A stretch of 64,000 nt of DNA from Escherichia coli. GTDB lineage: Bacteria > Pseudomonadota > Gammaproteobacteria > Enterobacterales > Enterobacteriaceae. The translations under genes and the position numbers were made by a program. Of the stretch, positions 11,082 through 60,835 are shown one piece after another; position 1 is the first letter of the stretch, and each line of letters opens with the position of its first letter. The stretch lies in the NCBI RefSeq assembly GCF_016903815.1, contig NZ_CP069973.1; one strand, written 5' to 3'. The notes below the pieces were generated by a model that did not search any database, was not told the DNA's origin, and saw only the letters and a list, made by a program, of their open reading frames with translations.

Positions 11082-11794
11082 TTGTGCACAGAAAACCCCC
11101 AGCTAGGCTGGGGGTTCCGGAAAGCTTTCAGCTTTAAGCCAGTTATTAAAACCCCTTTTGATTTGTTAAAACACCTTGCGGTCTGGCAACTGCAAGTGTC
11201 AAACAAGAAATCAAAAGGGGGTCCCAATGGGGAACGAAAAGAGCTTAGCGCACACCCGATGGAACTGTAAATATCACATAGTTTTTGCGCCAAAATACCG
11301 AAGACAGGTGTTCTACAGAGAGAAGCGTAGAGCAATAGGCAGTATTTTGAGAAAGCTGTGTGAGTGGAAAAGTGTACGGATTCTGGAAGCTGAATGCTGT
11401 GCAGATCATATCCATATGCTTGTGGAGATCCCGCCCAAAATGAGCGTATCCGGCTTTATGGGATATCTGAAAGGGAAAAGCAGTCTGATGCTTTACGAGC
11501 AGTTTGGTGATTTGAAATTCAAATACAGGAACAGGGAGTTCTGGTGCAGAGGGTACTACGTCGATACGGTGGGTAAGAACACGGCGAAGATACAGGATTA
11601 CATAAAGCACCAGCTTGAAGAGGATAAAATGGGAGAGCAGTTATCGATTCCCTATCCGGGCAGCCCGTTTACGGGCCGTAAGTAACGAAGTTGGATGCAA
11701 ATGTCAGATCGTGTGCGCCTGTTAGGGCGCGGCTGGTAAGAGAGCCTTATAGGCGCATTTGAAAAACCTCCGGCTATGCCGGAGGATATTTATT
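11082..11794 (+). mobile_element. IS200-type insertion sequence, copy 1
   Basis: 713-bp block identical to 27980-28692; left-end hairpin cccccagctaggctggggg; single Y1 transposase gene; absent from this intergenic site in E. coli K-12 as I recall it. Confidence 0.9.
11227..11685 (+). CDS. tnpA: IS200/IS605-family Y1 (HUH) transposase TnpA
   Basis: 152 aa from internal Met with RBS aaaggggg; HUH motif HIHMLVEIPP; ORF-track 5' extension judged non-coding. Confidence 0.9.
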   Translation: MGNEKSLAHTRWNCKYHIVFAPKYRRQVFYREKRRAIGSILRKLCEWKSVRILEAECCADHIHMLVEIPPKMSVSGFMGYLKGKSSLMLYEQFGDLKFKYRNREFWCRGYYVDTVGKNTAKIQDYIKHQLEEDKMGEQLSIPYPGSPFTGRK

Positions 11795-27981: not shown

Positions 27982-28692
27982 GTGCACAGAAAACCCCCAG
28001 CTAGGCTGGGGGTTCCGGAAAGCTTTCAGCTTTAAGCCAGTTATTAAAACCCCTTTTGATTTGTTAAAACACCTTGCGGTCTGGCAACTGCAAGTGTCAA
28101 ACAAGAAATCAAAAGGGGGTCCCAATGGGGAACGAAAAGAGCTTAGCGCACACCCGATGGAACTGTAAATATCACATAGTTTTTGCGCCAAAATACCGAA
28201 GACAGGTGTTCTACAGAGAGAAGCGTAGAGCAATAGGCAGTATTTTGAGAAAGCTGTGTGAGTGGAAAAGTGTACGGATTCTGGAAGCTGAATGCTGTGC
28301 AGATCATATCCATATGCTTGTGGAGATCCCGCCCAAAATGAGCGTATCCGGCTTTATGGGATATCTGAAAGGGAAAAGCAGTCTGATGCTTTACGAGCAG
28401 TTTGGTGATTTGAAATTCAAATACAGGAACAGGGAGTTCTGGTGCAGAGGGTACTACGTCGATACGGTGGGTAAGAACACGGCGAAGATACAGGATTACA
28501 TAAAGCACCAGCTTGAAGAGGATAAAATGGGAGAGCAGTTATCGATTCCCTATCCGGGCAGCCCGTTTACGGGCCGTAAGTAACGAAGTTGGATGCAAAT
28601 GTCAGATCGTGTGCGCCTGTTAGGGCGCGGCTGGTAAGAGAGCCTTATAGGCGCATTTGAAAAACCTCCGGCTATGCCGGAGGATATTTATT
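27980..28692 (+). mobile_element. IS200-type insertion sequence, copy 2
   Basis: Identical to 11082-11794 by eye, same orientation. Confidence 0.9.
28125..28583 (+). CDS. tnpA: IS200/IS605-family Y1 transposase TnpA
   Basis: Same 152-aa protein as copy 1. Confidence 0.9.
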   Translation: MGNEKSLAHTRWNCKYHIVFAPKYRRQVFYREKRRAIGSILRKLCEWKSVRILEAECCADHIHMLVEIPPKMSVSGFMGYLKGKSSLMLYEQFGDLKFKYRNREFWCRGYYVDTVGKNTAKIQDYIKHQLEEDKMGEQLSIPYPGSPFTGRK

Positions 28693-47983: not shown

Positions 47984-48463
47984 AATGGCAGCCTCTTGGT
48001 TGAGTATTAATAACTCACCACCAAGGTTTTCCACGACCATAAGGGTGGTGAGGCGTACAGGGGTGGAAATACCGGTCAACCAAGAATCCGGCCAGCCTTG
48101 CAGCTGCCCTGCACGCCCCACCATAATCTGAATGTGGCTGTGCTTGACGCATAAAAAAACCGCCTGAGCGCGGTTATGCGCTTGATTGAATTCCGGGTTT
48201 CCACGCCCGGCACCCGTTTTATGAGGTGCAGGTGCACTATAATTCCACCCGTTCTGGTTTTCAATAGCTACATTCAACATTTTCTCTTACCTTTCATCAC
48301 CGAAGTGAACTTTGTTGATGCGGTGCCTGGTGCCTCCAGGTGACGTTAACCAGTTAACAATTAACGCCGGATACAGAGAATCCACCCATAACACTGTTTT
48401 TGGTTTTAACTGTTCCGCGTGCGCTTAGCCGCATTCACCGCATCACAAAATTCACTTTAAAAA

Positions 48464-48515
48464 GGGTGGCAGAGCAGTCACGGAGTAGAACTGATGCCAC
48501 CAAAGACTACACATG
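48464..48515 (-). ncRNA. dicF: DicF-like small RNA
   Basis: Minus-strand ggtggcatcagttctactccgtgactgctctgccaccc plus U-tail matches recalled DicF 3' two-thirds at about 34 of 38 nt; 5' end approximate. Confidence 0.6.
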
Positions 48516-56538: not shown

Positions 56539-56718
56539 ATGAAAAACGCATTGCAGTTTTTGTTTGTTGCGTTCTGGTTGTTCGCATCATGTATGCCCAT
56601 CATCTTCACAGCAAGGTATATGGAAAAAATTGATGTTTTGATATTAATGTTTGGACATATAAATGCCCTTTTTTTAGGGGTGTTCATGGCGGTCATGTGC
56701 ATTGAATACTGGCGGTAA
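56539..56718 (+). CDS. Putative small membrane protein
   Basis: 59 aa from ATG 56539 with RBS aggggg; two hydrophobic segments; AT-rich context. Confidence 0.3.
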   Translation: MKNALQFLFVAFWLFASCMPIIFTARYMEKIDVLILMFGHINALFLGVFMAVMCIEYWR

Positions 56719-56799
56719 ATACAGCGAACGCCATTGGTTTAGTTGGATATTTACTGTGCCGGACAAAAACGGTTTGCGGGGAAATCTTAGTTAAGTAGA

Positions 56800-56976
56800 A
56801 TAACTGCGGGTGCTTGAGGCTATCTGTCTCAGGCATGAACACCAAAAGGCAGATAGAGAAAAGCCCCAGTTAACATTACGCGTCCTGCAAGACGCTTAAC
56901 ATTAATCTGAGGCCATATCTATGCGACACATAGAGATTAGCCTCTTACGGACCGAAAGGTCAAGGAGAAGCAGGCT
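56800..56976. promoter_or_regulatory. hok mRNA leader with mok-like upstream ORF and expected antisense Sok region
   Basis: 19-codon upstream ORF (ATG 56921) whose TGA overlaps the hok ATG; hairpin gcgtcctgcaagacgc; Sok position inferred, not observed. Confidence 0.35.
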
Positions 56977-57132
56977 ATGAAGCAGCAAAAGGCGATGTTA
57001 ATCGCCCTGATCGTCATCTGTTTAACCGTCATAGTGACGGCACTGGTAACGAGGAAAGACCTCTGCGAGGTACGAATCCGAACCGGCCAGACGGAGGTCG
57101 CTGTCTTCACAGCTTACGAACCTGAGGAGTAA
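56977..57132 (+). CDS. hok: Hok/Gef-family type I toxin
   Basis: Hand translation MKQQKAMLIALIVICLTVIVTALVTRKDLCEVRIRTGQTEVAVFTAYEPEE (51 aa), essentially the HokD/RelF sequence as recalled. Confidence 0.85.
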   Translation: MKQQKAMLIALIVICLTVIVTALVTRKDLCEVRIRTGQTEVAVFTAYEPEE

Positions 57133-57200
57133 GAGACCAGGCGAGGGAGAAATCCCTCGCCACCTCTGATGTGGCAGGCATCCTCAACGCACCCGCACTT

Positions 57201-57229
57201 AACCCGCTTCGGCGGGTTTTTGTTTTTAT
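57201..57229 (+). terminator. Rho-independent terminator after hok
   Basis: aacccgcttcggcgggtttttgtttttat. Confidence 0.75.
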
Positions 57230-57348
57230 TTTCAACGCATTTGAAGTTCTGGACGGTGCCGGAATAGAATCAAAAATACTTAAGTAGCGCGCAGGGATAA
57301 GAGGGATGGTCCCTTAAAGGGGAGAGCTAATTATCCGGAAGGATTCTG

Positions 57349-60478: not shown

Positions 60479-60835
60479 TTGTGGTAAATGGGCGGCTGGT
60501 GGGTGTGGTGGTTGTTGCTTTCCCGTTGCTGAAAAAGAAAACGCCAGACTGTTAGCCGGGTATCAGTTAGCGGGAGAAATTTTTAAATACTTCACAATTC
60601 AGGCGGTTGACTGTTGTCTGGTTTGCGGGGAGTTTGTTAAAAGAAACTGGCATGGTGAATCCCCCTGTGCGGAGGGGCAATCAGCGAGTAGGTATATGGG
60701 ATAATCGCGGATTCAGGTGCTGGTACTGAATTCACCGGGAGGCACCCGGCACCATGCAATGGCACATAGCGCCACTCTCCAGCCCCTCTCCGGAGGGGCT
60801 GTTTATATTGATTTTGTCAGATGTGAGTAAACTCC

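What the first reader, a model, noticed from the sequence alone, without database searches (positions are those of the whole stretch)
56800..57230. hok/sok-type type I toxin-antitoxin locus inside the prophage nin region
A 51-codon gene below the ORF-track cutoff encodes a near-canonical Hok/HokD peptide. It is preceded by a 19-codon leader ORF whose stop overlaps the hok start (mok-like coupling) and followed by a strong terminator. The antisense Sok RNA is expected opposite the leader but I did not locate its promoter. Unlike several K-12 chromosomal hok loci, no IS element or obvious mutation is visible.
Basis: partly seen in the sequence, partly recalled or inferred. Interest (0 to 1): 0.4.

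Follow-up and report, generated by a model that had tools for sequence, protein, structure and literature searches.

The report
Intact hokD/sok toxin-antitoxin in prophage

Summary

- **Toxin gene.** Window 56977-57132 (+) encodes a 51-aa peptide identical to K-12 HokD (Pfam HOK_GEF, E 1.2e-23).
- **Leader.** Rfam RF01794 matches 56808-56979 at 106.7 bits, on the hok-sense strand.
- **Leader ORF.** A 19-codon ORF (56921-56980) starts at the conserved mok position and stops at a TGA overlapping the hok ATG.
- **Fold-back.** The 5' tac box (56808-56819) pairs with a 3' fbi box (57182-57194) in the minimum-energy fold. An intrinsic terminator follows.
- **Antitoxin.** It has TTGACC-18 nt-TAATCT hexamers and its own terminator, and is co-linear with the annotated sokW of phage 933W.
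- **K-12 comparison.** K-12 hokD matches only from about 56963 onward; relBE replaces its leader.
- **How common it is.** Identical DNA occurs in many E. coli genomes, annotated hokD.

Among relatives with the same Hok protein, the mok start sits 56, 57 or 58 nt upstream of hok. All three reading frames therefore occur. The hairpin top around the mok AUG, which is complementary to the 5' tail of Sok, is hypervariable.

Function was not tested. This is a known system of low interest.

The parts
56774..56801 (+). Putative weak hok promoter: -35 TTGCGG (56774-56779), 16-nt spacer, -10 TAGAAT (56796-56801). It places the transcript start at about 56808.
   Evidence: Read. The TAGAAT aligns with TAGAAT of 933W and TATGAT of the R1-type locus. 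It falls below the threshold of the consensus scan, so it is inferred by homology.
56808..57224 (+). Predicted full-length hok mRNA, about 415 nt.
   Evidence: The Rfam model starts at 56808 and the terminator ends the transcript. Fold is -169.8 kcal/mol, z = -7.5. The ends are not mapped experimentally.
56808..56819 (+). tac box (5' end, GGGUGCUUGAGG).
   Evidence: Pairs with 57182-57194 in the minimum-energy fold. 99.4% of cells are paired across 56 related leaders.
56861..56867 (+). ucb box (AAGCCCC), the alternative partner of tac after 3' trimming. In the full-length fold this region pairs with the mok Shine-Dalgarno region.
   Evidence: Rfam consensus structure and constrained folds.
56909..56944 (+). 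Sok-target hairpin (GAGGC...GCCUC). It carries the mok Shine-Dalgarno (GAGG, 56909-56912) and the mok AUG. Its top (56914-56935) is hypervariable among relatives.
   Evidence: Rfam structure. The hairpin is kept in all 15 sequence variants, and column entropy peaks here.
56921..56980 (+). mok-like leader ORF: 19 codons plus a TGA that overlaps the hok ATG.
   Evidence: Its start is homologous to the annotated mokW start.
56964..56967 (+). hok Shine-Dalgarno (GGAG), lying inside the leader ORF.
   Evidence: Read. The block CAAGGAGAAG.AGGC.ATGAA is conserved through to the R1-type locus.
56977..57132 (+). hokD-type toxin gene, 51 aa.
57182..57194 (+). fbi box (CCUCAACGCACCC), the fold-back partner of tac.
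57201..57228 (+). Intrinsic terminator of the hok mRNA.
56934..56963 (-). Putative Sok promoter: -35 TTGACC (56963-56958), 18-nt spacer, -10 TAATCT (56939-56934).
   Evidence: Read. The position is homologous to the hexamers upstream of the annotated sokW. It was not detected by the consensus scan.
56859..56927 (-). Predicted Sok antisense RNA, about 70 nt: a 5' single-stranded tail, a long hairpin and a U-rich tail. It is complementary to the mok Shine-Dalgarno and AUG.
   Evidence: Coordinates transferred from the sokW annotation of AF125520. Fold is -29.5 kcal/mol, z = -5.6.

Best explanation
The locus is a complete hok/sok-type type I toxin-antitoxin module (HokD allele) carried in the nin-equivalent region of a lambdoid prophage. 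The mechanism below is inferred from sequence anatomy plus the R1 and hokW-sokW paradigms.

1. A weak promoter makes a stable hok mRNA of about 415 nt. Its 5' tac box is locked to the 3' fbi box, so the full-length RNA is neither translated nor bound by Sok.
2. Slow 3' trimming removes fbi and the terminator.
3. The 5' end can then pair with ucb instead. This releases the hairpin that carries the mok Shine-Dalgarno and AUG.
4. Ribosomes that start at the mok AUG read 19 codons straight across the hok Shine-Dalgarno. They terminate on the UGA overlapping the hok AUG, which allows hok to be translated by coupling or reinitiation.
5. Hok inserts into the inner membrane and kills or lyses the cell.
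6. A convergent promoter inside the leader makes an unstable Sok RNA of about 70 nt. Sok pairs with the mok initiation region, blocks mok (and therefore hok) translation, and marks the duplex for cleavage.
7. Toxin therefore appears only when Sok synthesis stops, for example on loss of the prophage or on prophage induction.

Shown here: every sequence element, their homology to annotated relatives, and the energetics of the two folds. Inferred: transcription, processing, coupling, toxicity in this host, and the biological role.
For: - **Toxin.** Identical to K-12 HokD and a strong Pfam/PHROG member.
- **Leader.** Matches Rfam RF01794 at 106.7 bits against a gathering score of 59.
- **Fold switch.** tac:fbi pairs in the minimum-energy fold at -169.8 kcal/mol, against -157.2 when tac:ucb is forced. 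After removing 57182-57224 the two states are within 0.9 kcal/mol (-141.2 vs -140.3). An R1-type control also folds 5' end to 3' end.
- **Compensation against R1.** The R1-type locus has tac GGCGCUU with fbi AAGCGCC. Here tac is GGGUGCUU with fbi (A)ACGCACCC.
- **Conservation.** 97.8% of cells are paired across 56 related transcripts, against 34-43% when partners are slid.
- **Sok.** Its coordinates are co-linear with annotated sokW, and it folds as a tail plus terminator hairpin.
- **Experimental relative.** hokW-sokW has 91.6% DNA identity and 47 of 51 residues identical. [quoted passage not shown]
- **The short mok should work.** In R1, mok must be translated up to the hok Shine-Dalgarno, but stop codons after the hok start have no effect (PMC9841398, section 18).
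- **The short form is not a one-off.** It occurs in 19 of 83 loci and 7 distinct leaders. The 501 bp around the locus (56760-57260) are at least 99% identical in 228 E. coli records.
Against: - There are no expression or toxicity data for this allele.
- Neither promoter passes a simple sigma-70 consensus scan.
- The unconstrained minimum-energy fold of the trimmed RNA keeps a 5' local hairpin rather than tac:ucb.
- Close relatives vary too little to give real covariation for tac:fbi: 8 of 12 pairs never vary and none changes on both sides.
- Chromosomal hok/sok loci tested earlier did not mediate post-segregational killing (cited in bioRxiv 10.1101/2025.08.07.668861).
- A 19-codon mok ending on the hok AUG has not itself been tested.
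Confidence: 0.85

Rival explanations
1. The locus is structurally intact but functionally silent: a hitch-hiking relic. Its toxin is never released at physiological levels, as reported for several chromosomal hok/sok loci.
For: Earlier work found that chromosomal hokA, hokB and hokC loci neither mediate post-segregational killing nor respond to rifampicin (cited in bioRxiv 10.1101/2025.08.07.668861). Leaderless or IS-disrupted hokD copies are common: 6 of 83 loci here, plus K-12. That suggests inactivation is tolerated or even favoured. The promoter hexamers are weak by consensus.
Against: All regulatory boxes are retained and pair as expected. The Hok protein is invariant by selection of the sample, but synonymous sites and structured leader helices are also almost invariant. 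The closely related hokW-sokW is active at its native prophage copy number (PMC8621323).
Confidence: 0.15
2. The short leader ORF is a frameshifted, disabled mok. Hok cannot be translated, so the locus is a pseudo-toxin-antitoxin system that keeps only Sok.
For: In the canonical R1 arrangement mok is 70 codons and overlaps hok (PMC9841398). Most relatives (54 of 83) have a 70-codon in-frame form. The window form differs from that majority form by a net 1-nt loss, made up of two indels.
Against: R1 genetics shows that only translation up to the hok Shine-Dalgarno is needed, and that stop codons after the hok start are harmless (PMC9841398, section 18). Here the ORF covers the whole hok Shine-Dalgarno and ends on the hok AUG. 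All three frames occur among loci with the same Hok, so the downstream mok frame is evidently unconstrained. The variant recurs in 7 distinct leaders.
Confidence: 0.07

Closest known systems
hokW-sokW (with mokW) of Stx2 phage 933W / Sakai prophage Sp5
   Same: DNA is 91.6% identical over 401 nt and 47 of 51 Hok residues match. It has the same tac, mok start, Sok position and fbi. [quoted passage not shown]
   Different: mokW is 57 nt upstream and in frame with hokW, giving a 70-aa N-extended Hok. Here the start is 56 nt upstream and the ORF stops at the hok AUG. The hairpin top and the Sok 5' tail sequence differ. 933W lacks the 57201-57218 terminator hairpin downstream of fbi. hokW sits near the right end of the phage genome, not in the nin region.
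K-12 hokD (relF) in cryptic prophage Qin
   Same: Identical coding sequence, 3' UTR, fbi and terminator, with the same downstream neighbour rem.
   Different: The K-12 copy matches only from about window 56963 onward. Its hok promoter, tac, ucb, mok start, Sok gene and Sok -10 are all replaced by relB-relE, leaving only the last base or so of the Sok -35. The window carries the complete arrangement.
hok/sok (parB) of plasmid R1
   Same: Same architecture and almost the same geometry. In R1 the mok AUG is at +116 and the hok AUG at +174 (PMC9841398); here they are at +114 and +170. Conserved blocks are GCUUGAGGC, AGCCCC, GAGGC, UAGCCUCUUAC and CAAGGAGAAG. Both fold 5' end to 3' end.
   Different: Hok is only 45% identical. 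R1 mok is 70 codons, out of frame and overlapping hok. R1 is plasmid-borne with a proven post-segregational killing role.
K-12 hokC/mokC/sokC (gef)
   Same: A chromosomal hok family locus with annotated mok and Sok, and the mok start 57 nt upstream of hok.
   Different: mokC is in frame with hokC. An IS186 lies just downstream in K-12.

Membership tests
[quoted passage not shown] | Small (about 50 aa) Hok/Gef membrane toxin ORF (Pfam PF01848). | tested here: met
   82.9 bits against a cutoff of 22, E 1.2e-23. PHROG 251 at 2.8e-33. Identical to K-12 HokD.
[quoted passage not shown] | Conserved structured hok mRNA leader (Rfam RF01794). | tested here: met
   106.7 bits against a gathering score of 59, full model 1-157, at 56808-56979 on the hok strand.
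[quoted passage not shown] | 5' tac box and 3' fbi box forming a fold-back that closes the full-length mRNA. | tested here: met
   Paired in the minimum-energy fold and 12.6 kcal/mol better than the alternative. 99.4% of cells are paired in 56 relatives, though the pairs are mostly invariant. The difference from the R1-type locus is compensated. This is in silico only.
[quoted passage not shown] | mok leader ORF with its own Shine-Dalgarno, whose translation runs across the hok Shine-Dalgarno (translational coupling). | tested here: met
   GAGG at 56909-56912 and ATG at 56921; 19 codons cover the hok Shine-Dalgarno and stop at the hok AUG. The form differs from R1 (70 codons, overlapping). Coupling itself was not tested.
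[quoted passage not shown] | cis-antisense Sok gene opposite the mok initiation region, with its own promoter and terminator. | tested here: met
   TTGACC-18 nt-TAATCT on the minus strand; the 56927-56859 RNA folds as a tail plus terminator hairpin; co-linear with annotated sokW. Presence of the sequence features only.
[quoted passage not shown] | Unstable Sok against stable hok mRNA, 3' processing to an active truncated mRNA, and RNase III cleavage of the duplex. | not testable with these tools
   Needs northern blots or rifampicin chase. Only the energetics of the trimmed RNA were computed.
[quoted passage not shown] | Toxicity of the peptide and its neutralisation by Sok. | not testable with these tools
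   Shown for HokW, which is 92% identical (PMC8621323). Not shown for this locus.
K-12-type relBE-hokD operon arrangement | hokD directly downstream of relE, without its own leader or Sok. | tested here: not met
   The window keeps 155 nt of leader where K-12 has relE sequence. No relBE lies nearby.
Lambdoid prophage nin-region cargo | Located between the replication genes and the Q antiterminator, on the early-right strand. | tested here: met
   The annotation of the identical sequence reads Cro/CI, YdaT, DnaT-like, P..., HNH, hokD, rem, DUF968, RusA, Q, all on the + strand.

The most novel reading that the evidence does not exclude
Within the HokD/HokW clade of prophage hok/sok modules, evolution leaves the toxin and the fold-back machinery fixed. 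It diversifies two things.

1. **The hairpin top around the mok AUG.** This is complementary to the 5' recognition tail of Sok. Diversity here could make co-resident prophage modules mutually orthogonal.
2. **The length of the leader.** The mok reading frame is free to be in-frame (an N-extended Hok), overlapping, or a minimal 19-codon upstream ORF, as here.

On this reading the window would carry the minimal form of mok, showing that mok acts purely as a ribosome-delivery device.
Probability: 0.35. Interest if true: 0.4.

Novelty: already known. Interest (0 to 1): 0.15.

Why it matters
For annotation, the point is modest. RefSeq labels only the hokD CDS in this sequence. The locus also holds a Sok antitoxin gene, a 19-codon mok-like ORF and the full set of regulatory boxes. 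It is therefore a complete toxin-antitoxin module, unlike the K-12 reference hokD.

Biologically, such modules can stabilise prophages, help lysis on induction (as shown for hokW-sokW), or interfere with other phages. The frame plasticity of mok and the hypervariable Sok-recognition hairpin are small, testable points about how many copies of one toxin-antitoxin family might coexist in a genome without cross-talk.

Tried and rejected
- **Consensus promoter scan.** It found neither the hok nor the Sok promoter. Both were placed by homology instead.
- **Rfam scan at a permissive E-value.** Only weak, sub-threshold hits (isrK, rsmX, P9) appeared on the 3' terminator region. I treated these as generic terminator-hairpin resemblance.
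- **Covariation on 56 close relatives.** Pairing is conserved (97.8%), but only 6 pairs change on both sides and none of these is in tac:fbi. This gives conservation, not proof of structure. The R1 comparison supplies the compensatory difference.
- **Unconstrained fold of the 3'-trimmed RNA.** It did not adopt tac:ucb. Constrained folding shows that state is only 0.9 kcal/mol above the minimum.
- **The 59-aa ORF upstream and Rem.** Pfam and PHROG gave no functional assignment for either.
- **Second hok copy in the window.** None found.
- **The 19-codon ORF as a disabling frameshift.** I considered this and rejected it on the R1 mutational data (PMC9841398) and its recurrence in several distinct leaders.

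Full report
**1. What is there**

The window is E. coli chromosome, with the rne 5' UTR and SraB at 2-5 kb. A lambdoid prophage occupies roughly the last 17 kb. The 501 bp around the finding are 100% identical to many complete E. coli genomes, where the only annotated feature is 'hokD: type I toxin-antitoxin system toxin HokD'.

In one such genome the neighbourhood reads: Rha, DicB fragment, HTH repressor, Cro/CI, YdaT, DnaT-like, P, several small genes, HNH, hokD, rem, DUF968, RusA, Q, holin, lysozyme, terminase. The gene therefore lies between the replication genes and Q, on the early-right strand.

**2. The observation**

- The ORF at 56977-57132 encodes MKQQKAMLIALIVICLTVIVTALVTRKDLCEVRIRTGQTEVAVFTAYEPEE.
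- It matches Pfam HOK_GEF at 82.9 bits, E 1.2e-23, and PHROG 251 at 2.8e-33.
- The 19-codon ORF runs from 56921 to 56980 and ends in a TGA that overlaps the hok ATG.
- A terminator stem at 57201-57218 with a T-run follows.
- There is one hok copy in the window.

**3. RNA elements**

Rfam RF01794 ('sok') matches 56808-56979 at 106.7 bits against a gathering score of 59. The match is on the hok strand. It begins with GGGUGCUUGAGG and ends at the hok AUG, so as built the model describes the hok leader rather than the antisense RNA.

Folding 56808-57224 gives -169.8 kcal/mol, z = -7.5. Nucleotides 1-12 (tac, 56808-56819) pair with 57182-57194 (fbi, CCUCAACGCACCC).

- Forcing the alternative tac:ucb pairing (ucb = AAGCCCC, 56861-56867) costs 12.6 kcal/mol in the full-length RNA.
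- The same pairing costs only 0.9 kcal/mol once 57182-57224 are removed.
- That is the switch expected from the R1 model. An R1-type plasmid locus used as a control also folds 5' end to 3' end.
- Its tac/fbi pair (GGCGCUU / AAGCGCC) differs from the one here (GGGUGCUU / ACGCACCC) in a compensated way.

**4. Sok**

On the minus strand, TTGACC (56963-56958), an 18-nt spacer and TAATCT (56939-56934) precede a predicted start near 56927. The 933W record annotates sokW, mokW and hokW. Transferring sokW through the alignment gives window 56927-56859, the mokW start gives 56921, and the hokW start gives 56977.

The 71-nt RNA folds as a free 5' tail, a long hairpin and a U-rich end at -29.5 kcal/mol, z = -5.6. 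It covers the mok Shine-Dalgarno (GAGG, 56909-56912) and the mok AUG.

**5. Relation to K-12**

K-12 hokD in prophage Qin matches the window from about 56963 to beyond rem, with only three mismatches, all downstream of the hok stop codon. Upstream of that point it has relE-relB instead. The K-12 copy thus lacks the promoter, tac, ucb, mok start, Sok gene and Sok -10. The window has the complete form.

**6. Relatives**

Related sequence occurs in 4,937 of 5,426 complete E. coli genomes (median 2 places per genome, up to 9), in 110 phage records and in 593 plasmid records. The closest studied relative is hokW-sokW of Sp5/933W, with 91.6% DNA identity. [quoted passage not shown] A recent survey reports that hok is enriched in prophages (bioRxiv 10.1101/2025.08.07.668861).

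**7. The mok question**

I examined 80 IMG/VR prophage loci encoding the identical Hok protein, together with 933W, a Rac-type phage and the window (83 loci in all).

| mok ATG to hok ATG | Reading frame | Loci | Distinct leaders |
|---|---|---|---|
| 57 nt | in frame, 70-aa extended Hok (as mokW and K-12 mokC) | 54 | 43 |
| 56 nt | 19-codon ORF (the window form) | 19 | 7 |
| 58 nt | R1-like overlapping frame | 4 | 4 |
| no leader | relBE junction or an IS insertion | 6 | 3 |

All three frames therefore occur next to one unchanged toxin. This agrees with R1 genetics: mok must be translated up to the hok Shine-Dalgarno, and stop codons beyond the hok start are harmless (PMC9841398). The 19-codon ORF is thus best read as a minimal but sufficient mok, not a defect.

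**8. Variation pattern**

Across 56 distinct transcripts, column entropy is about 0-0.05 bit in the hok coding region. It peaks at 0.72 bit at 56918-56934, the top of the hairpin that carries the mok AUG and is complementary to the 5' tail of Sok. Fifteen sequence variants exist and all keep the hairpin, at -10 to -15 kcal/mol.

In the four genomes that contributed two or three loci, the co-resident copies carry different variants. That sample is too small to test against chance. The pattern suggests, but does not show, selection for Sok specificity.

**9. Verdict**

The finding is real and correctly interpreted. It is a complete member of a well-known family, and identical copies are already annotated as hokD in public genomes. 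Function in this host is inferred, not shown.

Noticed in passing
window 56914-56935 (and the same columns in L004-L084): The top of the hairpin that carries the mok AUG, complementary to the 5' tail of Sok, is hypervariable. There are 15 variants among 56 leaders that flank an identical Hok, and all keep the hairpin. Co-resident prophages in 4 genomes carry different variants. This may be a specificity determinant.
   Followed up: partly
L005-L084 versus window 56921-56977: The mok start lies 56, 57 or 58 nt upstream of hok in different relatives, so mok is a 19-codon ORF, an in-frame 70-aa extended Hok, or a 68-aa overlapping ORF. The frame shifts come from indels in the hairpin top and in the Sok promoter spacer.
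   Followed up: yes
L012 341-1500, L056; L050, L061, L065, L080; L002: Leaderless hokD copies fall into two classes. One has relBE upstream, as in K-12. The other has an IS with a 362-aa transposase. Both join the hok Shine-Dalgarno at the same point (...ACAGGAGAAG), inside the Sok -35.
   Followed up: partly
window 56539-56718 (+): An unannotated 59-aa ORF (MKNALQFLFVAFWLF...) looks like a two-helix membrane peptide. It has a GGGGG Shine-Dalgarno and sits in a 37% GC stretch just upstream of hok. It is kept open at 93-100% identity in 13 other prophage loci and has no Pfam or PHROG match.
   Followed up: partly
window 56808-56979: The Rfam family RF01794, named 'sok antitoxin', matches the hok-sense strand and ends at the hok AUG. 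A hit therefore marks the hok leader, and the strand reported is opposite to that of the real Sok RNA.
   Followed up: yes
window 57115-57118: hok codon 47 is UAC followed by G (UACG). A-to-I recoding of Tyr to Cys has been reported for the hokD mRNA (bioRxiv 10.1101/2025.08.07.668861); that UACG is the TadA target motif is my own recollection, not checked here.
   Followed up: no
window 48041-48515 (-), 60621-60810 (+), 11094-11217 and 27992-28115 (+): Other Rfam hits in the window: C4 antisense RNA, isrK and DicF in the prophage immunity region; STnc100 near Q; and two identical STnc490 copies 16.9 kb apart in the chromosomal part.
   Followed up: no
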